A stretch of 62,950 bases of DNA, filler included, from Folioceros fuciformis (Eukaryota), in NCBI GenBank assembly GCA_049999805.1. It is 4 parts of 4 records of this genome, joined end to end, with 100 filler letters (N's around TTAATTAATTAA, not from the genome) between each part and the next. Parts side by side here need not be neighbours in the genome. Positions count along the whole stretch, not along the records: positions 14,270 to 41,669 come from JBNGIO010006186.1; 3 more parts are not named here. One strand, given 5' to 3'. Shown piece by piece: positions 5,405 through 62,700 of this stretch (position 1 is the first letter of the stretch; the number at the start of each line of letters is the position of its first letter). The notes under the pieces are model-generated. The model did no database searches. It saw only the letters and a program-made list of their open reading frames with translations, and was not told the DNA's origin. The translations under genes were made by a program, and so were the position numbers.

Positions 5405-6801
5405 ATGACGATCCAGGCGCTCAACAGCTGCGACAACGAGGCCATCCAGGTCGCCAAGTCCAGCATGTCGGGAGGCAACGGGGAAGCCAGCTACGCCAAG
5501 AACTCGCAATCGCAAGCACACGTCTTCAATTTNNNNNNNNNNTGCGCTACCGGCAGTAACACGTTGAATGCCGTGAAGAGCATTTTGGACGTGGTGAAGT
5601 ACAGATACCGGATTCTGAATGTGGAGATGCCGGAGGTGGAGGTCTCCTTTTCCGATCTCCCTTCCAACGATTTCAACACTATGTTCCAAGAATTGCCGCC
5701 TCTCAATCCTGCGGTGGCCAACCGGTCTCTCAAGGACTTCAGGCGAAATGCTAGCAAGAGGATTTTCTACGCCGGCGGTGTTCCCGGCTCCTTCTTTAAG
5801 GAGAGGCTCTTCCCTTCCAGAAGCATGCACATCATCTCATCCTTCTCGGCCCTGCATTGGCTCTCCGAGGTGAGCTTGCATTTCCCAATCTGCATTCCAT
5901 CCCGCCAGCAGCATTGTTGCCGATCCATATGGAGAAGGATGAAACCGACATGGATCTCCGGTCGGCTGTGTGCAGGTTCCCGCAGAGGTCGTAGACAAAC
6001 ACTCTCTGGCCTACAACAAGGACCGCATCTGGTTCGATGGGACCAGCGGACCAGTACGAGATGTCATCACCCAACAATCCGCGGCCGATTTGACGAAGTT
6101 TCTGCAGTTTCGAGCAGAAGAGCTGGTGCCCGGCGGCATTCTGGTGCTCATGTTCGGAGGCCGATTGGAGAAAGACCGTGTGAGGAACGGGGGGCGGGAC
6201 CTGGCTCACGGGGTAGAAGAGTTCCAAGGTCTGAGCGAGGCCGGCGAGTTGCTTCAACAAAGCTTCCAGGAACTCGTTTCCGAGGTACAAAACCAACTAC
6301 TTCCACAACTTCGCTCGCAATGGCTTTAACCCATTCCACCTCAAACCCACCTCCTCCTGCCACACTTCCCCACGATCCAATTCCTCCTGCCTCTCACAAT
6401 CATATGTACCACTCATTCATTCCCAGGGCGTGATCGAGCAAGAGAAGCTGGACACCTTCAACATCTCAGCTTACAGCAGAAGCCTGGCAGAAGTGAAGAA
6501 AGCTGTGAAGGAGTCGAGGCTGTTCGACATCCACTTACTGGACACCGTGGCCAAGGATGACATCATCCCGGCAGAGGAGAAGAAAAGAATGTGGCCTACC
6601 CGGGAAGCTTTTGGCAGGACCTGGGCAAACAAGACGAGGAGCGTGACATCGGGACTGCTCCACAGCCACATCGGGCCTGAGCTTTCAGACCTCTTGTTCC
6701 AGCGGCTGGAGGCCAAAGCCACCCAAAACTACGACAAGTACAGCAACATCAGGATGTGCGCAATCGTTGCAATTCTGGTCCGCCGATCTCAACAATCCTG
6801 A
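5405..6801 (+). CDS. SABATH-family (SAMT/IAMT/JMT-like) SAM-dependent methyltransferase, copy 1; exons ~5405-5869, 5976-6284, 6427-6801; N-gap at 5533-5542
   Basis: Motifs MSGGNGEASYAKNS, SDLPSNDFNT, GVPGSF, SFSALHWLS, FRAEELVPGG, LDTFNI; GT-AG introns restore the frame. The gap hides ~30 aa that are present in the paralog. Confidence 0.9.
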
Positions 6802-14169: not shown

Positions 14170-14269
14170 NNNNNNNNNNNNNNNNNNNNNNNNNNNNNNN
14201 NNNNNNNNNNNNNTTAATTAATTAANNNNNNNNNNNNNNNNNNNNNNNNNNNNNNNNNNNNNNNNNNNN
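14170..14269. other. Artificial contig spacer N44-TTAATTAATTAA-N44
   Basis: An identical 100-bp construct occurs three times; TTAATTAATTAA gives stops in all six frames. Confidence 0.95.
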
Positions 14270-32660: not shown

Positions 32661-33151
32661 CGCGCCCCTCACCCATCTGCCAAATTAGTCACACACAACC
32701 ATTACGAGGCCACGAGCGGGCTCTGAAACGGAGGACGATTCTGGTCCAACATGGTTGTTTAGCACATAGCGTGCGTTCGTCACCAGTGCTAACCAAATTG
32801 GGCATGTGCAACGTCTATCCTGCTTTCCTGTCTGATCTTCCTGCTCGCACGGATCTTGGGGTTCTGCCTGAAATGCCTGGTGGACAAATGTAGATTCAGA
32901 ACTGAGGATATGGTGCAGGAGACGCTGGGAAAGAACGTTGGGACATTCACCACTTTCATCAGTTGTGGACATGGCAGGGACGCATGGCTGAATTCAAGGC
33001 CGGGGAATTGCGCTCTCAGTTTCTTTTGCATTCAAGCTCTCCGGCTTCGGGCTAATGGGAGCCAGCTCGTATGCTTTTGTGACGGTACCCGGGCGTCCTG
33101 GCATAGTCTGTTGTTTGACTCATCTTCCGACACCTATCCTATCCCTGAACG

Positions 33152-36040
33152 ATGGCCACAGCATGGCAATCGGACCCGCTGTGGACCCAACACATTGTTG
33201 TGAGTACAGGGGTTCTATTAGGAGCTCCCGCTCACCTCACCGTTGGGAGTGAAGCCCTGGTCAACAAAGTCTCCAGACGCAGCAATGTGAGGAGCCTGGC
33301 AATGGGTGGGAACAGCTTTTCCAACGATGGTAGTCGCCAGAGGCAAGACTACTTGTGGCACCAAGTTTTTGCGGACCCTACCTTATGGTGGGACAGCAGA
33401 CGAGAAAAGAAGAGATCCCGTTCGCCTGACGCCCAGCGTAAGGAGTCTGGCAAGTTGCAGTGTGTAGACAACATGTCTAGGCCAGCTGGGGTTGATGACC
33501 AGCTCATTTCCTTGGATGTACAGATGGGTCAGGGTGCATCTCCTTCGAAATGGAGATCTCCGGATGGGGCTGAACCTGGCAGGCGTGATGGATGGGAAAT
33601 GGACGTCGTAACAGCTGGAACCGTGAGCACGTTATGTCAGCAGGGGAAGCTTTCTGAGGCCATTGGGGCTCTAGAGTCTCTGGCGCAGACAGACTCTGCT
33701 ATTTCTCAGTCTCTGTTGTACAATTTGCTGAAGTTGTGTACAGCTAAGAAGGATTTGGTTGTGGGGCGACGAGTTCATGATCTCGCTGTCAAACTTGGGT
33801 ACGATTCAAATGCATTCTTGGGGAACCATATCTTGCGCATGTATGCAAGGGAAGGGAGGCTAGAAGAGGCCATGGATGTGTTCACCAGGGTGGATAAACC
33901 AAATGCCTTCATCTGGGTTTCCATAATCTCTGCACATGCGAAGTATGGGAGGCCTAAAGATGCCATACAACTGTACCATGAGATGCGTAGGTCAGGACTG
34001 GAGGTGGATGCTCATGTGTTTGTAGCTGCCCTTCAAGCTTGCGCATTTGCCGGCGACTTGGAATCCGGCAGAAGAGTGCACTATGATTTTCTGCAGAGTG
34101 GGATTCCCACAAACTTGTTTGTTGGCACCTCCCTGGTGGACATGTATGCAAAATGTGGAGAACTGGAAGATGCACGTAGGGTTTTTGACAGCTTGGCTGC
34201 AAAAAGTGTGGTAACATGGACTGCCCTGCTTGCGGGGTACGCAAATCATGGGTTCAGCCAAGACGCGCTTCTTTTGTATGGGCAAATGGAGGAGGAGGGT
34301 CTGACTGTGGCCGATCATGTTACTTTTGCTTGCCTTCTGAGGGCTTGTGCAAGCACGGGTGCCATACAGAAGGGCAGGCAGCTGCACTCTCAGATTGTGA
34401 AAAGAGGACAGCTGCCTGACCTCCTTTTGGGCAACTGCCTGGTGGATATGTATTCAAAATGTGGTGAACTGAATGATGCTCGCCAGGTTTTTGACAGCTT
34501 GGCCACAAAAGATGTGGTGACATGGACGTCGATGATTGCTGGGTACGTCCAGCAGGAACTCGGGCATGAGGCACTTATTTTGTACGAACAAATGGAGCAA
34601 GAGGGCCTAGTGTTGGCTAACCATGTCACTTTTGCTTGCCTTCTAATGGCGTGTGCAAGCACAGGTGCCTCACAGAAGGGCAGGCGGCTGCACTCACAAA
34701 TAGTTGAACGAGGACTGCTGGATGACGTAGTGTTGGGCAACTGTCTGGTGGGCATGTATGCCAAATTTGGTGAGATGGAGAATGCACGCCAGGTTTTTGA
34801 AAGCTTGGTCACCAAAAATGTGGTGACATGGACAGCGCTGATTGCTGGGTATGCACAGCAAGGACTCGGCCATGAGGCGCTGGTTCTGTATGGACAAATG
34901 GAGGAGGAGGGCCTCTTTTTGGCTGATGATGTTACATTTTCTTGCCTTCTAAACGCCTGTGCAAGCACTGGCGCTTTACAAAAGGGCCGGCAGCTGCACT
35001 CTGAGCTTGTCAAACGAGGACTGCTGGATGACGTCGTGGTGGGCACCTGCCTGGTGGACATGTACGCAAAATGTGGAGAACTTGTAGAGGCACGCCGGGT
35101 CTTCGACAGCTTGGCCACAAAGAATCTGGTGACATGGAATGCCCTGATATGTGGGTATGGTACCTGCGATGAGGGTCACAGTGCGCTAGCTTGTTTTGAG
35201 GAGATGTTAGCTGCCGACATCCAGCCGGATGGCGTTACTTTTACTTGCCTTCTAGTAGCGTGTAGTCATGCAGGACTGGTTCAGGAGGGTCGCAATCACT
35301 TTGAATCCATCGCTGAACAACATGGCATCAAACCCACTATTGAGCATTACGTTTGCATGATTGATCTTCTTGGGCGTGCAGGCCATTTAGATGAGGCTGA
35401 AAACATGCTCCTATCATGTGAAGGCCAAAGTAATGTTGTGGGCTTGACATCTTTCTTGAATGCCTGCAAAAGTCACGGGGATTTAGAGAGGGCGAGGTGG
35501 TGTTTTGAAAGGATTGTTAAGCTAGATCCGCAAGGGGCATCAGCGTATGTGCTCATGGCCAATGCCTACGCAGATGCAGGTATGTGGATCGATGTAGAAA
35601 GGATTGAAACACAGAGAATGTTAGCAGGAGCTAACAAGAAACCTGCAGTGGCGACTATTGAGGTCAATATGCAGGTACATAGATTTCTGGTGGGAGAAAG
35701 GAGAGAGGATATTGCTCTTAAGGCAGTGAGCACGAATGCACGTATCAAGCAGGAAGGAGGGCACGTTCCTCAAACCAAGCTGGTATTGAAGCCAGGGTGT
35801 GAGAAGGACAAGGAAATTGCACTTTGCGGGCATGCTGAGAAGCTAGCTCTGGCATTTGGTCTCTTGCACACTCCAAGTGGAATACCTCTGGTGGTAACAA
35901 AGAATCTGCGGATGTGCAATGACTGCCACAGGTCCACGGAGATCATGTCAAGGCTTGAACACAGAGTCATTGTTGTCCGAGATGGGTACCGTGTGCATCG
36001 ATTTGCAGCTGGTTGTTGCAGTTGTAAAGGCCGACCTTAA
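33152..36040 (+). CDS. PLS-class PPR protein (~17 motifs) with a GRP-type DYW:KP domain and a degenerate N-terminal PDF-like motif
   Basis: Single ORF; KKPAVATIEV, LCGHAEKLA, CNDCH, CCSCKGRP*; N-terminal LWHQVFADPTLWWDSRREKKRSRSPDA. Confidence 0.93.
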   Translation: MATAWQSDPLWTQHIVVSTGVLLGAPAHLTVGSEALVNKVSRRSNVRSLAMGGNSFSNDGSRQRQDYLWHQVFADPTLWWDSRREKKRSRSPDAQRKESGKLQCVDNMSRPAGVDDQLISLDVQMGQGASPSKWRSPDGAEPGRRDGWEMDVVTAGTVSTLCQQGKLSEAIGALESLAQTDSAISQSLLYNLLKLCTAKKDLVVGRRVHDLAVKLGYDSNAFLGNHILRMYAREGRLEEAMDVFTRVDKPNAFIWVSIISAHAKYGRPKDAIQLYHEMRRSGLEVDAHVFVAALQACAFAGDLESGRRVHYDFLQSGIPTNLFVGTSLVDMYAKCGELEDARRVFDSLAAKSVVTWTALLAGYANHGFSQDALLLYGQMEEEGLTVADHVTFACLLRACASTGAIQKGRQLHSQIVKRGQLPDLLLGNCLVDMYSKCGELNDARQVFDSLATKDVVTWTSMIAGYVQQELGHEALILYEQMEQEGLVLANHVTFACLLMACASTGASQKGRRLHSQIVERGLLDDVVLGNCLVGMYAKFGEMENARQVFESLVTKNVVTWTALIAGYAQQGLGHEALVLYGQMEEEGLFLADDVTFSCLLNACASTGALQKGRQLHSELVKRGLLDDVVVGTCLVDMYAKCGELVEARRVFDSLATKNLVTWNALICGYGTCDEGHSALACFEEMLAADIQPDGVTFTCLLVACSHAGLVQEGRNHFESIAEQHGIKPTIEHYVCMIDLLGRAGHLDEAENMLLSCEGQSNVVGLTSFLNACKSHGDLERARWCFERIVKLDPQGASAYVLMANAYADAGMWIDVERIETQRMLAGANKKPAVATIEVNMQVHRFLVGERREDIALKAVSTNARIKQEGGHVPQTKLVLKPGCEKDKEIALCGHAEKLALAFGLLHTPSGIPLVVTKNLRMCNDCHRSTEIMSRLEHRVIVVRDGYRVHRFAAGCCSCKGRP

Positions 36041-36517
36041 GGCTCAGAATAGTGAAGAATCATCTAGCCAGTTCGATCTTGCTGAGCTACGGAGTCTGAA
36101 AGACCACCAAAATGATTCGTGAGGAATTTGTCTTTCTGCCTAGAAACACAGACGAATCCTTTTTCCCCATCTTAGTTTATCAAAAGTTCGGATTACTATA
36201 TTTCGAAAATAGAAACACTAACACCATTCCTGGTGTCATGGAATACATTATTTCTGTGTCTGAACAGTCATGGTGTCCAAGAACAGTATCCAGCTGTTGA
36301 AGGATCGTTGGGCTTCTTCGCCCGTCCGCCTTGTGAGCATGAGAGGTCCGGAAGACATGTCTCAAGCTGTGGGAACCAAGTTCCACGATGTTTGTCAAGG
36401 GGCCAGTCACAGCGGCCTTGATCCGCCTCACCCACAACTTCGGCGCTATGCTGCCCATCGGGTAGCGATTTGGCGCTCGACCTGGGGAACAGGTTGAGCT
36501 CATTCGCTGCCCTGGCC

Positions 36518-38803
36518 ATGGCTTCGGCAGCGCAACGACTACGCTCCTTGCTGCGAATTTCTCCTGCTGCCTGCTCATTCTTTTCCTCAGCTGCCGTCCG
36601 GAGCGGCGTAAGGAGCCCAGCACTACCGCTTCCGAGAAAATGTGTGGTTGGGGACGGGTTTTCCAGCGATGGTCGTTGCCAGGAGCAGGAGCACCTGTGG
36701 CAACAATTTTTTTTGGACCCTTCCATGTGGTGGGACAACAGACGAGATAAGAAAAGCTCCCGTTCGCCTGACTTCCGCCGTAGGGGATCCGGCGAGGTGC
36801 TGTGGTTGAACAGTATGTCTAAGCCAGCTTGGGTTGATGAGCAGCTCCTCTCCTTGGATCTGGGGGTGGGTGCAGGATCGGAAATGGGCGTTGCAACCGC
36901 TGGAACCGTGAGCATGTTATGTCAGCAGGGAAAGCTTTCTGAGGCCGTTGGAGCACTTGAGAATCTGGCGCAGACAGATTCTGCTATTTCTCAGTCCCTG
37001 TTTTACAGTGTGCTGAAATTGTGTACAGAAAAGAAGGACTTGGTTATGGGGCGACGAGTCCATGATCTCGCTGCGAGACTTCGGTACGAGTGGAGTGCTT
37101 TCTTGGGGAACCATATCTTGCGCATGTATGCATATGGAGGTAGCCTGGAGGAGGCCTTGGATGTGTTCACCAGGGTGGCCAAACCAAATGTCTTCTTGTG
37201 GGTTTCCATAATCTCTGCTCATGCTAAGCACGGGAAGCCTAAAGAGGCCATACGACTGTACCATGAGATGCGCAGATCAGGAGTGAAGCCGAATGCTCAC
37301 GTCTTTGTAGCTGTCCTTCAGGCTTGTGCATTTGCGACCGACTTGGAATCCGGGAAAAAAGTGCATCGTGATGTGGTGCAGAGTGGCATCCCTACTAACT
37401 TGTTTGTTGGCAACTGCCTAGTGGACATGTATGCCAAATGTGGCGAACTGAAAGATGCACGCCAGGTTTTTGACAGCATGGCCACAAAGGATGTGGTGAC
37501 GTGGACGGTGCTGATTGCTGGGTATGCCAAATGTGGAGAACTGGAAGATGCACGCCGGATTTTTGACAGCATGAACACGAAGAATGTGGTGACATGGACT
37601 GCCCTGATAGCTGGGTATGCCCAGCAAGGGCTCGGCCATGAGGCGCTTGTTCTGTATGCCCAAATGGAGGAGGGACTCATTTTGGCAGACGACGTCACCT
37701 TTGCGTGCCTTCTTAACGCCTGTGCAAGCACTGGCGCTTTACAAAAGGGAAGGCAGCTGCACTCAAAGATTTTCGAAAGAGGACGGCTGGATCACGTAGG
37801 GGTGGGCAACTCCCTGGTGGACATGTATGCAAAATGTGGTCAACTGGAAGATGCACGCCGGGTTTTTGACAGCATGAGCACGAAGGATGTAGTGACATGG
37901 AATGCCCTGATATTTGGGTATGGTACTTGTGATGATGGCCGCAGAGCACTAGCTTGTTTTGAGGAGATGTTAGTTGCTGGTATTCAGCCTGATGGTGTAA
38001 CTTTCACTTGCCTTTTAGCAGCATGCAGTCATGAGGGACTGGTTCACGAGGGTCGCAAGTACTTCGATTCCATGGCTGAGCAACACGGCCTCAAACCAAC
38101 AATTGAGCATTACAATTGTATGATTGACCTTCTTGGGCGTGCCGGGCATTTACATGAGGCTGAGAACATGCTCTTATCATGCGGCGGCCAAAGTAATGTT
38201 GTGGGCTTGACGTCTTTGTTGAGTGCCTGCAAAAGTCATGGGGATTTAGAGAGAGCCATGTGGTGTTTTGAAAGCATTATTCAGCTGGACCCTCGGTGGA
38301 CGTCTGCGTACGTGCTCATGGCCAATGCCTATGCAGATGCAGGTAGGTGGACCGATGTGGACAGGATTGAAACACAGAGATTGTTAGCAGGAGCCAACAA
38401 GAAACCTGCAGTGGCGACCATTGAGGTGAACAAGCAGGTACATCGATTTCTGGTGGGAGAAAGGAGAGAGGATATTGCCCTTAAGGTTGAGAGCACGAAT
38501 GCACGCGTGAAGCAGGAAGGAGGGCACGTGCCTCACAGTAATTTGGTGTTGAAGCCAGTGGGTGAGAAGGAAAAGGAGGACGCGCTTTGTGGACATGCCG
38601 AGAAGCTAGCCCTGGCGTTTGGTCTCTTGAACACACCCAGTGGGACACCTCTGGTGGTAACGAAGAACCTGCGTATGTGCAGTGACTGCCACAGTTCGAC
38701 GGAAATCATGTCAAGGCTTGAACAAAGAGACATTGTCGTAAGGGATGGGTACCGTGTACATCGATTCGCAGCTGGGTGTTGCAGTTGTAAGGGTCGACCA
38801 TGA
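36518..38803 (+). CDS. PLS-class PPR protein (~12 motifs) with a GRP-type DYW:KP domain and an intact N-terminal PDF-like motif; likely start ATG 36518
   Basis: Presequence-like MASAAQRLRSLLRIS…; WQQFFLDPSMWWDNRRDKKSSRSPDFRRRGSGEVLWL; KKPAVATIEV, GHAEKLA, CSDCH, CKGRP*. Confidence 0.93.
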   Translation: MASAAQRLRSLLRISPAACSFFSSAAVRSGVRSPALPLPRKCVVGDGFSSDGRCQEQEHLWQQFFLDPSMWWDNRRDKKSSRSPDFRRRGSGEVLWLNSMSKPAWVDEQLLSLDLGVGAGSEMGVATAGTVSMLCQQGKLSEAVGALENLAQTDSAISQSLFYSVLKLCTEKKDLVMGRRVHDLAARLRYEWSAFLGNHILRMYAYGGSLEEALDVFTRVAKPNVFLWVSIISAHAKHGKPKEAIRLYHEMRRSGVKPNAHVFVAVLQACAFATDLESGKKVHRDVVQSGIPTNLFVGNCLVDMYAKCGELKDARQVFDSMATKDVVTWTVLIAGYAKCGELEDARRIFDSMNTKNVVTWTALIAGYAQQGLGHEALVLYAQMEEGLILADDVTFACLLNACASTGALQKGRQLHSKIFERGRLDHVGVGNSLVDMYAKCGQLEDARRVFDSMSTKDVVTWNALIFGYGTCDDGRRALACFEEMLVAGIQPDGVTFTCLLAACSHEGLVHEGRKYFDSMAEQHGLKPTIEHYNCMIDLLGRAGHLHEAENMLLSCGGQSNVVGLTSLLSACKSHGDLERAMWCFESIIQLDPRWTSAYVLMANAYADAGRWTDVDRIETQRLLAGANKKPAVATIEVNKQVHRFLVGERREDIALKVESTNARVKQEGGHVPHSNLVLKPVGEKEKEDALCGHAEKLALAFGLLNTPSGTPLVVTKNLRMCSDCHSSTEIMSRLEQRDIVVRDGYRVHRFAAGCCSCKGRP

Positions 38804-39200
38804 GAGGAATGAAAAACTAGCCAGTGCGATCCGACATCCTGATTATAAATGGGGATTCCCGCTGGGGCATGGTCATCAAACCTGAACTTCGGGCTTCCCT
38901 GTCCCACCTCGCGCTCTCTTAGGCGCATCATTCGCTAACTGGTTCGAGCATGTTGTTCTTGTCGGGGAAAATAACATAGTCGTAACGCTCGTTTGCTTCA
39001 CCTAACAAGGGCTTGACATGTCCGCCCGGACGGTATCAGATCTGGGTCGGCGGGGGAACTTGGAAAGATTTGACAGTCGAGTCCTAAAGATGTTTGCGAA
39101 TTGGCGGGCTTCTGCAATTGTGATCCGGCGCTATGCGGCCCAGCGGCTAGGAACTTGGCGCTCGTCTTGGGCAATTGGTTGAGGTCACAGCTGCCTGGCC

Positions 39201-40089
39201 ATGGCTTCGGCAGCGAGAGGCGTATCCTCCCTGCTGCGCCTGGCGGATGCTGCCTCCCCGTCTTCTGGCTCTGCTGCCGTCCGGAGCAGTGTAAGAAGCG
39301 CATTTCTTCCCCTTCCGAGGAATTGTGTGGGGGATACGGAGCAGGAGCCCTTGTGTCAGGACCCATCCATGTGACGGAACTACAGACGAGATGAGGCGGA
39401 CTCCCATTCGCCTGACTTCCGGCGTAAGGGGTCCGGCGAGGTGCTGTGGTTAAACAATATGTCTAAGCCAGCGTGGGTTGATGCGCATCTCGTTCCCTGG
39501 GACATGCGAATGGGTGGAGGATCCGAAATGGGCGTCGTGACGGCTGGAACCGTCAGACTGTTATGTCAGCAGGGGAGGCTTTCTGGGGCCGTTGGAGCCC
39601 TGGTATCTCTGGCGCAGACAGACTCTGCTATTTCTCAGTCCCTGTTTTACAGTGTGCTGAAATTCGTTACAGGATTTGGCTGTGGGGCGCCTAGTTCATC
39701 ATCTCACTGCCAAACTTGGGTATGAGTCCAATGCGTACTTGGCGAACCATATCTTGCGCATGTATGCTTGGGGAGGTAGCCTGGAGGAGGCCATGGATGT
39801 TTCATCAGGGTGGCCAAACCAAATGTCTTCATGTGGTCTTCCATAATCTCTGCTCTTGCTAAGCACGGGAGACCTAAGAGGCCATACGACTGTACCATAA
39901 GATGCGCAGGTCAGGAGTGAAGCCGAATGCTCACGTCTTCGTAGCTGTCCTTCAGGCTTGTGCAGTTGCTGCCGACTTGGAATCTGGGAGAAAAGTGCAT
40001 CGTGATGTGGTGCAGAGTGGCATTCCTACCAACTTGTTTGTTGGCAACTGCCTAGTAGACATGTATGCCAAATGTGGCGAACTGAAAGA
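39201..40089 (+). pseudogene. Truncated, frameshifted third copy of the PDF-PPR-GRP gene
   Basis: High nucleotide similarity to 36518-37455 with indels and stops (e.g. atgtgacgg for atgtggtgg); similarity stops after KCGELKD. Confidence 0.88.
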
Positions 40090-40098
40090 CTCGGAAAT

Positions 40099-40118
40099 CC
40101 TAAACCCTAAACCCTAAA
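40099..40118. repeat. Telomere-type repeat (CCCTAAA)~3 at the pseudogene breakpoint
   Basis: cctaaaccctaaaccctaaa read directly. Confidence 0.85.
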
Positions 40119-40942
40119 GCCCATCCTGGTCCCTTGTGTGCAACTTTCCAACTCCACAACTGTCATCCCGTCCCAATCTGCAACATTGCATGCACAAAGT
40201 GGGGCCCTGGTTAGTAAATGAGCACACAGGAATATGCACATCCAGGCAGGTAAGGAAGAGGAGTTACTTGCCTCAAACCAATATCTCCTTGGGAAACACC
40301 TGATGCCGCCCTTTGCTGACCACTAACTGCTTTTCTACCCCTTTGCTCTGTGTTGGAAAAGGTTGAAGAGTTCTGATGCTGCCTGTCAGTCACGTATCCG
40401 CAGGGTCAATTCTTCGAATACAGCTACTATTGCACGTAAAAGGAGGAAGAGGCAGATGTCCAGCTTGCACAGTTTTGCATAACCAAGGACCAGGGAAGGA
40501 AGTATTACCATATAGCTCCCGGAGACATAGCGTGCCTAGACTTGAGTCTGGCAGGTTTCGGAGCTGTTTCGCTGCAGCTCATGGTTGCTGTGATGGCACC
40601 CCACGTCTGGGTGGCAGGGATCGTTCAAAGAGCCTTTTTGGCTGCAAGTTTTAGGGCCCATCGACAAGGCATTCGGTGAAAGCAAGCCCGGAGAACGGAT
40701 GCATGCCGCAGACCATATAAAGCAGAACAGATGAGAATACCTAGTGCTCCTCACGAGAAAATTACCCTGCTGTCTCTGAAGCGGAGATCAACCCCAACAC
40801 ACGTCTGTCCACCCCGCAAAAGTATGGGTAGTGACATTCTGCTGTGGTAACATGTCCGATTCGTTTTTAGAATCTCCCTCTATTGAACCGACGGTTCGGG
40901 CTGTGCATGATATCGCATCCGACCTTTGACGTTATCCCTGCC

Positions 40943-41353
40943 CTACCTGTGCCTATACTCGGTGGAACATGCAGGTGAGTCTACCACCACTAAGTGCTTG
41001 GCAATGCCAATGGCAATGGCTATGGCCCTCATCAAAATATCTTCTTCAATGTAAAGCTTCTCCGCCTTGTCTGCTTCACCTAAGCAAACATACTCTCTAC
41101 CATCTTCTTCAGTCTCGCCATGGGCATTAACGCAAAACAGAAAACAATCGTCCTTTTCTAAGTCAGGATGCCTGAGACGGTGCTCCAACGTTGATTTCGC
41201 TTCCTTAAGATCGTCCACCGCACAAGCTATCTCAAACTTCCAGGGCACACCGCGGTGAAGAACGTCAAGTCGCCCTCTGTCTAGCTGTCCTCCATCTCTG
41301 CCTTTTTCTACACTGACCATCATTGCAAGACCTCGCCGGTGACCTTCATTCAC
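40943..41353 (-). other. Caspase/peptidase C14 p20-like reading frame (exon or pseudogene fragment)
   Basis: HRRGLAMMVS…RDGGQLDRGRL…KFEI…DCFLFCVNAHGE…GIAKHLVVVDSPACS follows the motif order of caspase p20. There is no ATG start and an upstream in-frame stop. Confidence 0.55.
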
Positions 41354-41669
41354 TCTTTCGTTTGAATATCATAGTTCCTTCCCTGACTTCAGTAGAGGCG
41401 GTCCCTGTGACTGACTTTGGATATGATGGTTCCTTCCCCGAGGTTCTCCACACACTCAGTCCTGATGATCCCTTCTACTAGTTCAAGTCCAGGATTCCCT
41501 TCAGGAGAAGCACAAAATGTTATCAGTTTCGCAACAATACTCTGCTGGAGAAATTCGATCGTTTGTCTGTGCTCTTGAGTGACGCCATCAAAATGTGAAC
41601 ACGATCACCAATGTCCCCGGTCTCCTCCCCAATATCCCCACTGCTCTCCAACAATACGTCCATACCATA

Positions 41670-41769
41670 NNNNNNNNNNNNNNNNNNNNNNNNNNNNNNN
41701 NNNNNNNNNNNNNTTAATTAATTAANNNNNNNNNNNNNNNNNNNNNNNNNNNNNNNNNNNNNNNNNNNN
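41670..41769. other. Artificial contig spacer
   Basis: N44-TTAATTAATTAA-N44. Confidence 0.95.
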
Positions 41770-42272
41770 TTGAAGAGGTGTGCGTCGCCCGCCCAGCATC
41801 CGTCGGGAAGCTGAGAACGCACCACCCACTCCAGCGCTGCAGGAAACTGCGGCCCCGCCCCGCCGCCCACCGCCGGCACCATCGCCACCCACGCCGCGTC
41901 GTACGGGCTCCCGGAGATCTCCCCGTCCCCGAGCGACTGCAGCATGCTCTTGATGCTTCGGATCAACTCCTGGACTTCAACCACCTCCGGATCCGGCTGC
42001 TCCACCTTCTGCACCTCCAGGTCGAGCGTGGCTTGTATATCTGCAGCCAGAGCTTGCAGTGGACCGAGTCCGAGAACCTGCCGAACTTGCTCCGCCTCAT
42101 GCTTGCCTCGTCCACTACTTCTCTCGATCGAACGCACAACGCTGCCCGCAACCTTTGTGGGTCGGCTTATTTGGTCTCGACTGCTCCACCCTGGTAGACA
42201 CACTCGGCGTTGCAGAAAAGAATTCCAAGATACCGCTGCAGCTCGTGAGGCACCCACTGCAGCCATTGCCAT
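41770..42272 (-). CDS. Diterpene synthase (CPS/KS-type), transit peptide and start of gamma domain; 3' part lost at the contig end
   Basis: IKSMLQSLGDGEISGSPYDAAWVAMVP…PQFPAALEWVVRSQLPDGCW contains variants of the SAYDTAW and QxxDGSW motifs; plastid-transit-like N-terminus. Confidence 0.88.
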
Positions 42273-42690
42273 CTTCAGATAGGATCGAGATTCAAATGGG
42301 TCTCTGCAGTGAGATGGGACGGAGATGAATTGGGACCATGCAGTGAGATGAGATTGAGATGAAATGGGCCTCTGCTCTGAGTGAGCAGATACCTGCTGTG
42401 TGCTGAAACATCAAGCTCTTGCTCATATATGGCATGGCCTTCTTGCGCATGCATTGCACACGCGGACAGGGGAATTAGAATTCCCAGGTTTCCTTGACTT
42501 CCTCGAAGACATCGCCTTCCTTCAAACTAACCAATTACCCGTCCTCTCTCCAACTTTCTATCCTTTGGAGGCTTTGAGTACAACAAGACGTGTGCAAGCA
42601 TATGGCGTTTCCTGTCTTGCACACACCCCGACTCGGAAGCGAATCTCTTTGAAGACCCTACGACACAAGCTTATCACCGGGGATTGAACC

Positions 42691-43560
42691 CTGGTGTCCA
42701 CTTTGCTACATGACGTCTCCCTGATTGCAGACCTGGCATTTCCTGACAAGTTGGTATCCACTTTGCTAAATGGCAACTTCTCATTACATACATGGCATTT
42801 CCTAACAAGTTGGTGTCCACTTTGCTAAACGGCAACTCCGCATTGTAAACCTGGCATTTCCTAACAAGTTGGTGTCCACTTTGCTAAACGGCAACTCCGC
42901 ATTGCAGACCTGGCATTTCCTAACAAGTTGGTGTCCACTTTGCTAAATGGACACCAACTTGCTAAACGGCGTCTCCCTCATTGCAGATCTGGCGTTTCCT
43001 AATAAGTTGGTGTCCACTTGCTAACCGGCGTTTCCTAAATAGCGTCTCCCTCATTGCAGATCTGGCGTTTCCTAACAAGTTGGTGTCCACTTTGCTAAAC
43101 GGCGTCTCCTAAATGGCGTCTCCCTCATTGCAGATCTGGCGTTTCCTANNNNNNNNNNNNNNNNNNNNNNNNNNNNNNNNNNNNNNNNNNNNNNNNNNNN
43201 NNNNNNNNNNNNNNNNNNNNNNNNNNNNNNNNNNNNNNNNNNNNNNNNTGCAGACCTGGCATTTCCCTAACAAGTTGGTGTCCACTTTGCTAAATGGCGT
43301 CTCCCTCATTGCAGACCTGGCATTTCACTAACAAGTTGGTGTCCACTTTGCTAAACGGCGTCTCCTAAACGACGTCTCCCTCATTGCAGACCTAGCATTT
43401 CCCTAACAAGTTGGTGTCCACTTTGCTAAATAGCATACCTCGCATTTCCCTCACAAGTTGGTGTCCACTTTGCTAAATAGCGTACCTCGCATTTCGCTCA
43501 CAAGTTGGTGTCCACTTTGCTAAACGGCGTCTCTCTCATTGCAGACCTATTACCTAACAA
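42691..43560. repeat. ~59-60-bp tandem minisatellite with an internal 100-N gap (43149-43248)
   Basis: Unit cagacctggcatttcctaacaagttggtgtccactttgctaaacggcgtctccctcattg repeated more than 10 times with small indels. Confidence 0.93.
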
Positions 43561-59678: not shown

Positions 59679-59778
59679 NNNNNNNNNNNNNNNNNNNNNN
59701 NNNNNNNNNNNNNNNNNNNNNNTTAATTAATTAANNNNNNNNNNNNNNNNNNNNNNNNNNNNNNNNNNNNNNNNNNNN
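59679..59778. other. Artificial contig spacer
   Basis: N44-TTAATTAATTAA-N44. Confidence 0.95.
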
Positions 59779-62700
59779 ATGCGTTTCAACACCCGGAAAG
59801 GACCTGCAAAGCGGTAGGTGAGTTTGCTGCGTTGCTGAATCATGTCAAGATACCTGTGGGGCTTGACTCGAAGCCAAACAAACTGGCCAACGGAGTAGTT
59901 GACATCGCGTCGGTGACGGTTTGCTGTGATGCAGGTCCGGTCTTGTGCTGCTTGGAGTTTTGTCGAGCCATCTTGGCCTCGTGCCAGATGTCCTCGGCGA
60001 TTTCAACAGCGCTTCGCCACTTGTCTTGACTGTTGGGCCATAAGCCTGAAGGTGGGGGTGTCTCACCATACAGGAGTTTGAAGGGAGTAACCCCTGTGGC
60101 TACGTGCTTCAAGGAATTGTACGCATACTCCAATAAGGGAAGGAGTTCCTCCCACTTCGTCTGCTTCTCGTGTGTGACGAAGCATGTCTTCTAACACCTG
60201 ATTCTGCTTCTCTGTCTGGCCGTCCCTCTGTGGGAGATAGGCTGAAGACATGTTCTGTTTGATGCCTAGTGTGTCCATGAAGTTCCGCCAAAACCCGAAG
60301 GTGAATTTCGCGTCCTTGTCCGACACAATGTCCTCTGGTGTTTCGTGTAATCAGAAGATTNNNNNNNNNNCAAGTGCCCCGAGATTGGGGAATCATGCAG
60401 ATAATGGAGGATGGCCTGTTTGACAGCAGTGAGCTAGGAGGGGATGACCAACCGGCCCTTACGGTAAACACAAGCATCCTTGAGGGAATAGAGTTGGGTA
60501 ATTGTTGTGGGAATACTTGTTCCTGCATCTGCTAAGAGATTTTGATACAGCTGCCACAACTCTAGGTCTTGAGGCAATCCATCCCGGACTAACTGCACCG
60601 TTTGGGACTGTGTGGTCATGAGTGTGCAGGCTCTCCTGCTCAAGGCATCTGCGACCACGTTAGAAGTCCCAGTGACATACTTGATCTTGAGGTCAAAATC
60701 CTCCAGGTATTCGGCCCACCTGCGTTGTCTGGAGTTGAGGTTGGGTTGTGAGAAGAAATGTTGCAAGGAGTGGTGGTCTGTGTGACACACCACCTTCTGG
60801 CCTAAGAGGTAAGGCCTCCACACCTTGAGAGCATGGGTGATCGCCAACATCTCTTTGTCATGTATAGCGTAATTCAACTGTGCCCCTTGCAACTTCCTGG
60901 ATTCGTAGACAATAGCTCGACCCTGTTGTGACAGTACTGCACCCATAGCAAAATCTGATGCGTCTATGTGCAGGGTGTATGGGGCATGGGGGTCTGCCAC
61001 CGCTAGCACGGGAGCCGACCTAAGGGCTTGCTTGAGCTGTTCAAATGCCTGGATGGCCACTGGCCCCAATTGTAAGGGTTTGGTGGTTGAGTGCCTGAGG
61101 GCATCCGTTAGGGGAACAGCTATCTTACTGAAACTTTGGATGGAGCGGCGGTAAAATCCGGCCATGCCCAGGAACCCACGTAGTTTGTGTGATATCCTGG
61201 GGTAGGGACCAGTCCACCACGGCTTTGACCTTGCGCGGATCTACCCGGATACATGTTGCACTAATGATGTGGCCCAGGTATTCACAATCTTGCCTCATGA
61301 AGTCACACTTACTTCTTTTGGCCAACAACTTGTTTGCACGTAGCAGCTCAAGTACCTTTCTGACCAAGGTGTAATGTTTCTCTAGGTCAGGTGTGTATAT
61401 GAGGATGTCATCGAGGAAAACTTCTACGCCGTGCCCCAACAATGGTTGTAAGATGTCTTGCATGAGACATTGGAATGTTGAAGGTTCGTTTGTCAAGCCA
61501 AACGGCATGACCCTGAACTCGAAGTGGCCATGTCTTGTACGGAAGGCGGTTGTAGACTCATCCCCTTCCTTGATCCTGATATGGTGGAAGCCGGATCTCA
61601 GATCAATCTTGGTAAACCACTTTGCACCGTGAAGTTGGTCCAGGATCTCATCGATCCCCGGCATCTGGTAGACATTTCTGACTGTGGCCCGGTTGAGTCC
61701 TCGATAGTCAATGCATAGTCGCCAACCACCATCTGGTTTGCCAACAAGAAGGACTGGGGCTCCGAAGGGGGACACTGAAGGGCATACAAACCCTTTCTGT
61801 AGAAGTTCACCTACTTGTTTTTTTATTTCCTTGTTTTCAGTGGCTGACGTACGGTATCGCTGAATACTGATGGGTTTATGGCCTGGCAGGAGCTCTATGG
61901 CATGGTCGATAGGACTTCTAGGGGGGAGTTTTGCTGGTTCGGTGAACACATCTTGGAACTCCTGTAGTTGTGACTTCATGGTGGGTGGTAGGAGTTCCTC
62001 ATGAGCCTTGGCTTCTACAGCTCTGGACTCTGGGGTTCCTTCTAGGGGTAAGAATTTTTTCAGCTTAGCTATGTACATGAACCTGCCAGAGGCAATGGCT
62101 ATATTGAAAGCAGATACTGCACACAACTGTTTGTCGGGGGTATACTGTTCACCCTGCATGGTGTATGTCTTGTCCCCCTTTGTAAGACTCACTATGTTAG
62201 ACAACTAGTCTATGTCTAATGTGTGGGTATGCTTGGCCAGCCAGGGCTTACCAATAATGATGTCATGACACAAGGACGGCATTACAGTTAGCTTGAAGAC
62301 TTCTGCAAAACCACCTGGGAAGGTGACTAGTGCATCAGTCCACTCTTCCTTGCTGGTTTCATGCTCGCCCAACGCTGTCACTACTGTGGACACATGTCAT
62401 GAGGTACAGATCTGCAGGCCAACCTTTTCATCAGCGGATCTCGACACATAATGATGATTGGCACCAAAGTCTAGCAGAGCTGTGGCTCAGGCACCTTCTA
62501 GACCAACCTCTAGTTTGATGGGCACGTGGGTAAGGTAACCCTCTTGGAGATTTGACTTCCTTGAGATCACTGCAGCTATGGCATGGGTACTAACCTCGGT
62601 TGTGTTGATGGCATGTCCGCTCTTGGGAGGGTTTGGGTTTGGTTGGCTCACTCTGGTGGTCTTCCCAGTTTCTCTCAACCAGCTGATGAAGTCCTTGCGG

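What the first reader, a model, noticed from the sequence alone, without database searches (positions are those of the whole stretch)
40330..41400. Caspase-like (p20-type) protease domain in a plant genome
Seen: HRRGLAMMVS…RDGGQLDRGRL…FEI…DCFLFCVNAHGE…KHLVVVDSPACS. By eye it parallels metazoan caspase p20 (RRG.AL, R.G...DR..L with the S1 Arg, DCF....SHG, K..IIQAC) more than plant metacaspases, with catalytic His and Cys in order. A weak, stop-interrupted p10-like stretch (LRAIVAVFEE) lies at ~40330-40440. Established: plants encode metacaspases, not true caspases. Caveats: no ATG, an upstream stop, two extra residues before the Cys, and a position near a contig end. It may be an exon (AG|GTAGGG donor) or a relic of horizontal transfer.
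Basis: inference. Interest (0 to 1): 0.75.

Follow-up and report, generated by a model that had tools for sequence, protein, structure and literature searches.

The report
Decayed caspase-type gene copy in plant
This is a broken, half-length copy of a gene for an animal-style caspase protease, a kind of gene that liverworts and hornworts turn out to carry although plants are usually said to have only metacaspases.

Summary
The peptide strings are real. They lie on the minus strand in a 141-codon stop-to-stop frame, 40943-41368. Pfam does not recognise the frame itself. An exhaustive phmmer search finds 6 relatives (E 1e-6 to 2e-4), and all 6 pass Pfam Peptidase_C14. The named ones come from Marchantia and the hornwort Nothoceros; a later profile search adds Riccia. 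A family HMM built without the window row scores the frame at 85.5 bits.

This family resembles animal caspases much more than metacaspases:
- Profile against PDB: caspase-6 at E 4e-36.
- Structure: Z 27.6 to caspase-3/8/9, against 18.9 for AtMC4.

The window copy is not an intact gene:
- The homology stops before the catalytic-Cys motif.
- No p10 half exists anywhere in the window, so the proposed p10-like stretch is unsupported.
- A TGA directly precedes the domain, and the N-terminal remnant lies in another frame.

The 1.55-kb stretch behaves as a multi-copy, diverged repeat in the organism's DNA runs. It abuts a truncated PPR pseudogene at a telomere-like repeat.

Verdict: a pseudogene relic of a real, little-described plant caspase-type family.

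The parts
40943..41368 (-). Stop-to-stop frame of 141 aa: the p20-type half of a caspase-type (Peptidase C14) domain. R24 is at 41299-41297, H83-G84 at 41122-41117. Homology to the family ends near residue 124-126.
41369..41371 (-). In-frame TGA one codon before the conserved Y-x-N that opens the domain. No ATG lies in frame before M16/M17, which are inside the first strand.
   Evidence: The HMM alignment reads through it as X.
40999..41026 (.). Hexamer microsatellite (TGGCAA x4.7 on the + strand) inside the frame, read as AIAIAIGIA. It replaces the family's conserved segment before the Cys strand.
   Evidence: alignments; HMM alignment
40964..40978 (-). It is 3 residues out of register with the family's NACRG and lacks the Arg-Gly that follow the Cys.
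41389..41604 (-). Remnant of an N-terminal domain shared with the Nothoceros caspase-type transcript, in a different reading frame from the caspase frame. It ends in a stop 20 bases before the caspase frame opens.
   Evidence: tblastn P0006 residues 18-63 to 41580-41440, E 0.005; frames; no Pfam family
40119..41669 (.). The 1.55-kb stretch that behaves as a multi-copy, diverged repeat in the organism's DNA runs. It is cut on the right by the scaffold end.
   Evidence: depth 6- to about 100-fold above the unique flank; short contigs with 2-18 differences; loose ends at 40118. No second copy in the window.
40095..40118 (.). Telomere-like repeat (AAACCCT x3.4) at the junction between the truncated PPR pseudogene and the repeat.
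   Evidence: loose ends at 40089 and 40118
39125..40093 (+). Third, truncated and frame-shifted copy of the neighbouring DYW-type PPR gene (residues 7-346 of 793, three frame pieces).
   Evidence: Pfam PPR_2 1.6e-7 on 39878-40117

Best explanation
The locus is a decayed, truncated copy (pseudogene fragment) of a caspase-type cysteine-protease gene. The gene belongs to a small family found in non-seed land plants; named members come from Marchantia, Riccia and Nothoceros.

Intact family members carry a full p20+p10 caspase domain with these motifs: R-x-G...DR, SAHG, (F)INACRG, FSTEEG..S.R and GT.FVQAL. They therefore keep the His-Cys dyad and a basic Arg / Asn (in place of Gln) / Arg S1 pocket. 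I infer from this that they cut after acidic residues, as animal caspases do, rather than after Arg/Lys as metacaspases do.

The window copy keeps only the first about 125 residues: strand 1, the S1 Arg, and the His-Gly. It has lost the Cys motif and the whole p10 half. It is preceded by an in-frame stop, and its N-terminal domain remnant lies in another frame. It most likely makes no active protease.

The 1.55-kb stretch that holds it is one of many diverged copies in this genome. It ends at a telomere-like repeat against a broken PPR gene, in a scaffold end made of decayed duplicates.

Shown: the homology, the fold, the missing parts, and the multi-copy behaviour. Inferred: Asp/Glu specificity of intact relatives, lack of function here, and the way the copies spread.
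For: Homology:
- 6 phmmer hits at E 1.2e-6 to 2.1e-4, and 6 of 6 pass PF00656.
- The family HMM built without the window row scores 85.5 bits.
- The protein Atlas gives a first hit of 0.92 to 'Caspase domain-containing protein', with 20 of 30 hits in that set.

Caspase type:
- Profile against PDB: caspase-6 at 4.1e-36 over p20+p10. R, (N for Q)ACRG and S.R align with caspase-6's R, QACRG and SHR.
- Foldseek on the family model: caspases at E 1.2e-18, TM 0.74/0.81.
- VIA Z: 27.6 for caspases, 22.3 for MALT1, 18.9 and 17.9 for AtMC4 and AtMC9, 15.1 for Yca1.
- The window model's best hits are caspase p20 chains, at E 7.6e-6.

Decay:
- The HMM match covers positions 24-157 of 319 only. No p10 match appears in any frame of 39500-41669 or of the whole window.
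- TGA at 41371-41369, and three different frames for the upstream pieces.
- A hexamer repeat lies inside the frame.
- The Cys is out of register, and pLDDT is below 50 from residue 132.
- The tree gives an end branch of 3.97 against a median of 0.17.
- Of the 10 listed differences from other copies inside the frame, 8 change the residue and 2 are silent.

Multi-copy:
- Summed contig depth on 40109-41669 is 73-440 (X1), 64-441 (X2) and 117-1809 (X3). The unique flank 38900-39364 gives 11.4, 7.45 and 18.7.
- The listed pieces are 122-282 nt long with 2-18 differences each.

Context: a truncated, frame-shifted PPR copy ends at 40093.
Against: - The 141 codons have no internal stop, and every invariant p20 column is kept. 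Decay is therefore recent, or the p20 half may still be under some constraint.
- A good donor-like AG|GTAGGG closes the frame, so an exon reading is not excluded.
- Other copies continue past 40118 with different sequence (loose ends). The missing Cys and p10 parts might therefore lie downstream in other copies, and the junction at 40095-40118 was not shown to be bridged by any listed contig. A chimeric scaffold is possible.
- Depth from contigs is not a copy number (tool caveat).
- Pfam alone does not see the domain in the window frame.
- The Atlas match shares 165 of 256 features, just under the 170 typical of same-family hits.
- The extra base that would join the two upstream frames is seen in one X3 contig only. 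X1 and X2 contigs at that place do not have it.
- Substrate specificity of the family is untested.
Confidence: 0.75

Rival explanations
1. It is a genuine exon of a working caspase-type gene. The exons with the catalytic Cys and the p10 half lie elsewhere because the scaffold is short or wrongly joined at the telomere-like repeat. The upstream stop and frame changes would then be intron sequence.
For: - The frame is open for 141 codons with all invariant p20 residues.
- AG|GTAGGG lies at the end of the frame.
- Two Nothoceros isoforms differ exactly before GKPK, which suggests an intron near this point in hornworts.
- Other copies run on past 40118 into other sequence.
- No listed contig bridges 40089-40186.
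Against: - The family segment before the Cys strand is already replaced by a hexamer repeat inside the frame.
- The TGA sits one codon before the conserved Y-x-N, with no acceptor-like site that keeps the frame (by eye).
- No Cys or p10 exon appears in the 825 bases downstream in any frame.
- The unnamed relatives P0002 and P0004 carry the whole domain in one uninterrupted frame.
Confidence: 0.12
2. It encodes a p20-only, Cys-less pseudo-protease that acts as a decoy or regulator of intact family members, as c-FLIP does for caspase-8.
For: - Invariant p20 residues are kept.
- Marchantia P0001 (186 aa) and Nothoceros isoform P0006 are also p20-only and end near the same point.
- The c-FLIP protease-like domain is a close structural match of the family model, Z 22.2.
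Against: - There is no start codon before the first strand, and a TGA lies directly upstream.
- The N-terminal remnant is in another frame.
- 8 of 10 listed copy differences change the residue.
- P0001 and P0006 may be gene-model or intron-retention artefacts.
Confidence: 0.07
3. A gene fragment picked up and multiplied by a mobile element, with the caspase-like piece as passive cargo.
For: - The coding and non-coding parts of 40119-41669 are raised in depth alike.
- There is a sharp boundary at 40118, with other flanks in other copies.
- The stretch interrupts a PPR gene copy.
- Many insertion/deletion variants exist among copies (tables 4 and 5).
Against: - No transposase, reverse transcriptase or other family was found. 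Of the 8 flanking frames tested, only 2 had any family at E <= 1, and the only significant matches were the PPR models on the PPR fragment.
- No terminal repeats were found, only a 26-nt direct repeat and two short inverted pairs.
- The element is cut by the scaffold end, so its other end is unseen.
- This reading overlaps with the best explanation rather than excluding it.
Confidence: 0.3
4. Contaminating animal or microbial DNA, or a chance resemblance.
For: - The stretch lies at a scaffold end beyond an odd telomere-like junction.
- The nearest solved structures are animal caspases.
Against: - The nearest sequences are plant proteins and unnamed relatives. No animal caspase reached E 1e-3.
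- The stretch is held by 3 runs from 2 studies under the same organism label, at depth above the unique flank.
- G+C is 0.515 for the scaffold, like the other scaffolds at 0.50-0.53.
- E-values and 85.5 bits exclude chance.
Confidence: 0.02

Closest known systems
Caspase-type proteins of bryophytes: Marchantia polymorpha PTQ31690.1 / Mp6g00900 / Mp6g00860 ('Caspase family p20 domain-containing protein', 'protein SERAC1'), Mp5g08650, Riccia sorocarpa R1sor_005734, Nothoceros aenigmaticus TRINITY_DN748 transcripts (names as given by the sources)
   Same: - They are the best sequence matches (E 1.2e-6 to 2.1e-4, 32-42% identity).
- They share the same spacing Y-x-N...RRG, R-x-G..DR and (S/N)AHG.
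- The N-terminal remnant matches the Nothoceros N-terminus.
   Different: - The window copy lacks the NACRG motif and the p10 half and is interrupted.
- It has no alpha/beta-hydrolase (SERAC1-like) domains such as the 807-aa Marchantia proteins carry.
- It has a very long branch and no supported placement in the tree.
Metazoan caspases (MEROPS subfamily C14A; e.g. caspase-6, -3, -8, -9)
   Same: - The family profile aligns over the whole p20+p10, with R, xACRG, S.R, G(S/T).(F/Y)(I/V)Q and the C-terminal K.(L)(Y/H) matched.
- Z 27.6, rmsd 2.1-2.8 over 215-222 residues, 25-27% identity.
- The window model matches caspase p20 subunits with TM 0.55-0.62.
   Different: - Asn replaces the Gln before Ala-Cys.
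- The N-terminal domains differ: no CARD or DED was found by Pfam.
- They occur in plants.
- The window copy is not intact.
- Cleavage after Asp has not been tested.
Plant and fungal metacaspases (C14B; Arabidopsis MC4 and MC9, yeast Yca1)
   Same: The same clan CD fold and His-Cys order. This is the only C14 kind that the reviews I saw ascribe to plants (abstracts of PMC9104976, PMC10896300, PMC5756287 in the listings).
   Different: - They are structurally more distant from the family model: Z 18.9, 17.9 and 15.1, at 12-15% identity.
- None appears among the 60 rows shown of any PDB sequence search.
Catalytically dead caspase homologues (c-FLIP protease-like domain)
   Same: A caspase fold without a working Cys. 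Z 22.2 to the family model.
   Different: c-FLIP keeps both halves of the fold and is expressed. The window copy is half a domain with no start codon.

Membership tests
Peptidase C14 (Pfam PF00656) | The sequence itself passes the Pfam model | tested here: not met
   Window frame: 0 families at E <= 10.
Peptidase C14 (Pfam PF00656) | Significant homology to proteins that pass the model | tested here: met
   6 of 6 phmmer hits pass, at 28.7-116.4 bits against a cut-off of 21.4. The family HMM without the window row scores 85.5 bits.
Peptidase C14 (Pfam PF00656) | Caspase-type alpha/beta fold | tested here: met
   Half-domain only. Window model: pLDDT 74.1, pTM 0.64. Its best PDB matches are caspase p20 chains, at E 7.6e-6 and TM 0.55-0.62.
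Peptidase C14 (Pfam PF00656) | Catalytic His in the (S/A)HG motif | tested here: met
   H83-G84 (NAHG) fall in invariant columns.
Peptidase C14 (Pfam PF00656) | Catalytic Cys at the end of the fourth strand (xACRG) | tested here: not met
   The window has SPACS, 3 residues out of register and without Arg-Gly. The HMM alignment stops before it. One search gives an alternative placement on the p10 strand. pLDDT is below 50.
Peptidase C14 (Pfam PF00656) | p10 half (strands 5-6, S.R and G(T/S).F motifs) | tested here: not met
   No match to HMM positions 158-319 in any frame of the window.
True caspases (C14A) | Closer to caspases than to metacaspases or paracaspases in sequence and structure | tested here: met
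   Family profile: caspase-6 at 4.1e-36, and the 60 shown of 233 rows are all caspases. P0016 and P0015 alone: 2.1e-9 and 7.2e-16 to caspases. Z 27.6 against 22.3 (MALT1) and 18.9 (AtMC4). Metacaspase E-values in the same sequence searches were not visible, because only the best 60 rows are shown.
True caspases (C14A) | Basic S1 pocket: Arg after strand 1, Gln before Ala-Cys, Arg in p10 (caspase-1 numbers 179/283/341, recalled) | tested here: inconclusive
   Family: Arg, Asn (not Gln) and Arg align with caspase-6's residues. Window copy: only the first Arg (R24) exists; the other two positions are lost.
True caspases (C14A) | Cleavage after Asp | not testable with these tools
   Needs an enzyme assay of an intact relative.
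Functional gene | Start codon, uninterrupted frame, transcript | tested here: not met
   TGA at 41371-41369. The first in-frame ATGs are M16/M17. The upstream remnant is in another frame. Whether the locus is transcribed could not be tested (see Tried and rejected).

The most novel reading that the evidence does not exclude
Land plants outside the seed plants carry genuine caspase-type (C14A-like) proteases with an Arg/Asn/Arg S1 pocket. This genome holds a recently multiplied set of them, of which the window copy is a dead member. Intact copies would be Asp- or Glu-directed proteases used in plant cell death or immunity. In Marchantia they are fused to SERAC1-like alpha/beta-hydrolase domains. 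That would contradict the standing statement that caspases are restricted to animals. It would also offer a sequence-level candidate for some of the 'caspase-like activities' long measured in plants.
Probability: 0.3. Interest if true: 0.85.

Novelty: new member of a known kind. Interest (0 to 1): 0.55.

Why it matters
Reviews state that caspases are restricted to animals and that plants have only metacaspases. I saw this in the abstracts of PMC10896300, PMC5756287, PMC9104976 and PMC13272413, in the listings.

The window copy itself is dead. It nevertheless led to a small family in liverworts and hornworts that is much closer to animal caspases than to metacaspases in both sequence and predicted structure. 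Databases label these proteins automatically as 'Caspase family p20 domain-containing protein'. In 7 full-text searches I found no paper that describes them. Klim et al. 2018 (PMC5982838, passages read) report caspase-like proteins outside animals only for Reticulomyxa and viruses.

If intact members cut after Asp, a long-standing question becomes testable in Marchantia, a tractable model: do plants have real caspases, and where did caspases arise? The locus also extends the family to another plant genome, where it is multi-copy.

Tried and rejected
- Pfam and PDB sequence searches with the window frame alone gave nothing useful.
- The word-index search at near length found 23 candidates, none at E <= 1.
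- No whole genome is held for this window. Other copies of the repeat therefore could not be fetched, and no paralogue lies in the window.
- RNA evidence: no RNA holder is listed. X3 is only guessed to be RNA and covers the intergenic flank like a DNA run. Expression is untested.
- The junction at 40089-40186 was not shown to be bridged by any listed contig. Only 24 of 1664 pieces were listed.
- Pattern scans for relatives, all with narrow reach:
  - Viral contigs: 0 of 48 stretches confirmed.
  - Genome contigs: 0 of 21.
  - Metagenome contigs with the profile: 0 of 86.
  - With P0004: 1 locus, L001, which looks like an animal caspase exon at 33% identity.
- The tree of 21 rows gave no supported place for the window frame. 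The one animal-like outgroup row is not separated from the unnamed relatives. No metacaspase or named animal caspase sequence was at hand for a proper phylogeny.
- A search with the neighbouring PPR protein did not identify the plant lineage. The nearest named proteins are 38-46% identical, from Cryptomeria, Diphasiastrum, Ginkgo, Calypogeia and ferns.
- The + strand frame 40440-40679, which looks hydrophobic, has no Pfam or PDB match.
- The bacterial promoter/terminator scan found 0 and 0 sites and does not apply to a plant.
- The search of earlier findings returned nothing.
- By-eye attempts to link the upstream frames by a short intron failed, and I dropped them.
- Supplements of the genome papers were not opened. 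They might list these genes.
Full report
WHAT IS THERE

The window is a chain of unplaced scaffolds joined by N44-TTAATTAATTAA-N44 linkers at 14170-14269, 41670-41769 and 59679-59778. The finding lies in the scaffold 14270-41669, about 300 bases from its right end.

They lie on the minus strand in one stop-to-stop frame, 40943..41368, 141 aa.

The same scaffold carries two intact DYW-type PPR genes, at 33149-36040 and 36422-38803. A third copy covers only residues 7-346 of 793. It is split over three frame pieces and ends at 40093. A telomere-like repeat (AAACCCT x3.4, 40095-40118) separates that broken PPR copy from the 1.55 kb that holds the finding. The setting is plant nuclear DNA.

IS THE CASPASE LIKENESS REAL?

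Searches with the frame alone failed:
- Pfam gave no family at E <= 10.
- PDB phmmer gave only three chance-level rows, at E 0.12-1.2.
- The near-length word search gave nothing.

An exhaustive phmmer search over 1.84 billion representatives gave 6 proteins at E 1.2e-6 to 2.1e-4, with 32-42% identity. All 6 pass the Pfam Peptidase_C14 gathering score.

Their sources name three of them. Two are from Marchantia polymorpha: a 186-aa protein, and an 807-aa protein with two SERAC1-like alpha/beta-hydrolase regions followed by the caspase domain. One is a transcript of the hornwort Nothoceros aenigmaticus. The other three come from unnamed metagenome or SRA assemblies.

A profile search added 9 further proteins, giving 15 at E <= 1e-3. 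All 15 carry PF00656, and they include a Riccia sorocarpa protein.

An HMM built from 19 relatives without the window row scores the frame at 85.5 bits over HMM positions 24-157 of 319. It is the only hit in the whole window. The protein-language Atlas independently puts the frame next to 'Caspase domain-containing protein' clusters, with a score of 0.92 and 20 of 30 hits. The shared-feature count of 165 is slightly low.

WHICH KIND OF C14?

- The family profile hits metazoan caspases over the full p20+p10 length, with caspase-6 at E 4.1e-36. All 60 rows shown, of 233, are caspases.
- In that alignment the family's R-x-G, (N)ACRG, S.R, GT.FVQ and C-terminal K.LY columns pair with caspase-6's R, QACRG, SHR, GSWYIQ and KKLH.
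- The named plant proteins alone give the same answer. Marchantia P0016 has its best hit at 2.1e-9 and Nothoceros P0015 at 7.2e-16, and every row shown is a caspase.
- An AlphaFold2 model of the family representative P0004 (pLDDT 87.8, pTM 0.89) matches caspase-6/7/3/8 by Foldseek at E 1.2e-18.
- In a search of 48,161 representative chains, the model gives these Z values:
  - 27.6 for caspase-3/8/9, at 25-27% identity.
  - 22.3 for MALT1.
  - 18.9 and 17.9 for Arabidopsis metacaspases 4 and 9.
  - 17.8 for a Geobacter homologue.
  - 15.1 for yeast Yca1.
  - 12.9 for TbMCA2.
- The model of the window frame (pLDDT 74.1) also finds caspase p20 subunits first, at E 7.6e-6.

The mapping of the three S1-pocket positions to caspase-1 numbers 179/283/341 is recalled.

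WHY THIS COPY IS NOT A WORKING GENE

1. Homology stops near residue 124-126. The segment before it is a hexamer microsatellite read as AIAIAIGIA (TGGCAA x4.7, 40999-41026).
2. One alignment places VVVDSPACSTEYRHR on the p10 strand LL.FSTEEG..S.RH instead, which would mean the Cys strand was deleted. The model is unreliable from residue 132.
3. No p10 half exists in any frame of 39500-41669 or of the whole window with filters off.
4. A TGA (41371-41369) sits one codon before the conserved Y-x-N that opens the domain. The spacing from that Y to RRG is identical in the window, Marchantia and Nothoceros. The first in-frame ATGs are M16/M17, inside strand 1.
5. The 71-aa frame upstream (41389-41604) matches the N-terminus of the Nothoceros protein (residues 18-63, E 0.005), but it lies in another reading frame. 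The piece upstream of that lies in a third frame.
6. In the tree the window frame has an end branch of 3.97 against a median of 0.17, and no supported placement. Its nearest row by path is Nothoceros.

THE STRETCH IS REPEATED IN THE GENOME

Three public runs from two studies under one organism label hold 36-42% of the stretch's sampled words.

Laid on 38900-41669, their contigs give a summed depth of 11.4 / 7.45 / 18.7 on the unique flank 38900-39364. On 40109-41669 the depths are 73-440 / 64-441 / 117-1809. The listed pieces there are 122-282 nt long and differ from the window at 2-18 places each. At many places every covering contig differs from the window.

The tool warns that contig depth is not a copy number. 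The pattern is what a family of diverged copies gives.

Loose ends at 40089 show that other PPR copies run on with normal PPR sequence. Loose ends at 40118 show that other copies of the repeat have a different left flank. The repeat boundary is therefore at the telomere-like tract. No listed contig bridges that tract, so a chimeric join cannot be excluded.

One X3 contig (depth 313.5) has one extra base behind 41564, which would put the two upstream frames into one. X1 and X2 contigs at that place do not have it.

Of the 10 listed differences inside the caspase frame, 8 change the residue and 2 are silent. This is a small sample, consistent with relaxed constraint. No mobile-element protein or terminal repeat was found in the 1.55 kb.

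MOST LIKELY EXPLANATION

The locus is a decayed, truncated member of a caspase-type gene family of non-seed land plants, and one of many diverged copies in this genome. It sits in a scaffold end made of broken duplicates.

Intact relatives keep the His-Cys dyad and a basic S1 pocket, and several have Asp residues in the linker between the halves. I infer from this that they are acid-directed, self-processing proteases. This has not been tested.

The rivals are an exon of a working gene whose other exons are missing from the scaffold, a p20-only decoy, cargo of a mobile element, and contamination. They are weighed in their own sections.

IS IT KNOWN?

The family is in public databases with automatic caspase labels. 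Seven full-text searches found no paper that describes caspase-type genes in bryophytes.

The review abstracts I saw say that caspases are restricted to animals (PMC10896300, PMC5756287), that caspase homologues 'do not exist in plants' (PMC9104976), and that plant genomes lack genuine orthologues (PMC13272413). In passages of Klim et al. 2018 (PMC5982838), caspase-like proteins outside animals are reported for Reticulomyxa and viruses only.

Subscription journals and supplements were not covered, so the family may be mentioned somewhere I could not see.

LIMITS

- The plant's lineage was not identified.
- The organisms behind the unnamed relatives are unknown.
- No metacaspase sequences were at hand for a rooted phylogeny.
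- Expression could not be tested.

VERDICT

The locus itself is a dead copy. Interest is moderate for the locus and higher for the family it points to.

Noticed in passing
window 14170-14269, 41670-41769, 59679-59778: The window is a chain of separate scaffolds joined by N44-TTAATTAATTAA-N44 linkers. Plain N runs also lie at 5533-5542, 43149-43248 and 60361-60370. Neighbours across a linker are not neighbours in the genome.
   Followed up: yes
window 33149-36040, 36422-38803, 39125-40093 (+): A tandem array of DYW-type PPR genes: two intact copies and a third that is frame-shifted and truncated. The read-laying shows very high summed depth over conserved PPR segments.
   Followed up: partly
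window 40095-40118: A plant telomere-type repeat (AAACCCT x3.4) lies exactly at the join between the truncated PPR copy and the caspase-bearing repeat. It could be a scar of break repair, the end of a mobile element, or an assembly join.
   Followed up: partly
window 41361-41386 and 41416-41441: A 26-nt direct repeat (22 of 26 identical) spaced by 55 bases straddles the start of the caspase frame. In the upstream copy the codon that matches the TGA reads TCA, and the frame reads ..KEPSYPKS.., like the family's ..SYPS.. lead-in.
   Followed up: partly
window 40248/40249 and 40972/40973 (+ strand): By eye, two canonical donor-like sites lie on the plus strand (CAG|GTAAGG and CAG|GTGAGT). A variant contig keeps GTAAGT at the second. 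A hydrophobic plus-strand frame 40440-40679 lies between them, with no Pfam or PDB match.
   Followed up: partly
window 41770-42410 (-), next scaffold: An open frame reading ..SIKSMLQSLGDGEISGSPYDAAWVAMVP.. reminds me (recalled, not tested) of the N-terminus of copalyl-diphosphate/kaurene synthase-type terpene synthases. Pfam gave no family at E <= 1 for the frame with its N run.
   Followed up: partly
P0005 / P0007-P0010 (Marchantia), P0028 (Riccia): In liverworts the caspase-type domain is fused behind regions that match alpha/beta-hydrolase models (SERAC1-like by the sources' names). Marchantia has several near-identical loci (Mp6g00860, Mp6g00900 and others).
   Followed up: no
L001 959-1609 (+): A 2.1-kb A+T-rich metagenome contig holds a caspase exon (..SHG.., ..INACQG.., ..STVPGHASFR.., ..GSWY..) that looks animal. 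It is 33% identical to P0004.
   Followed up: partly
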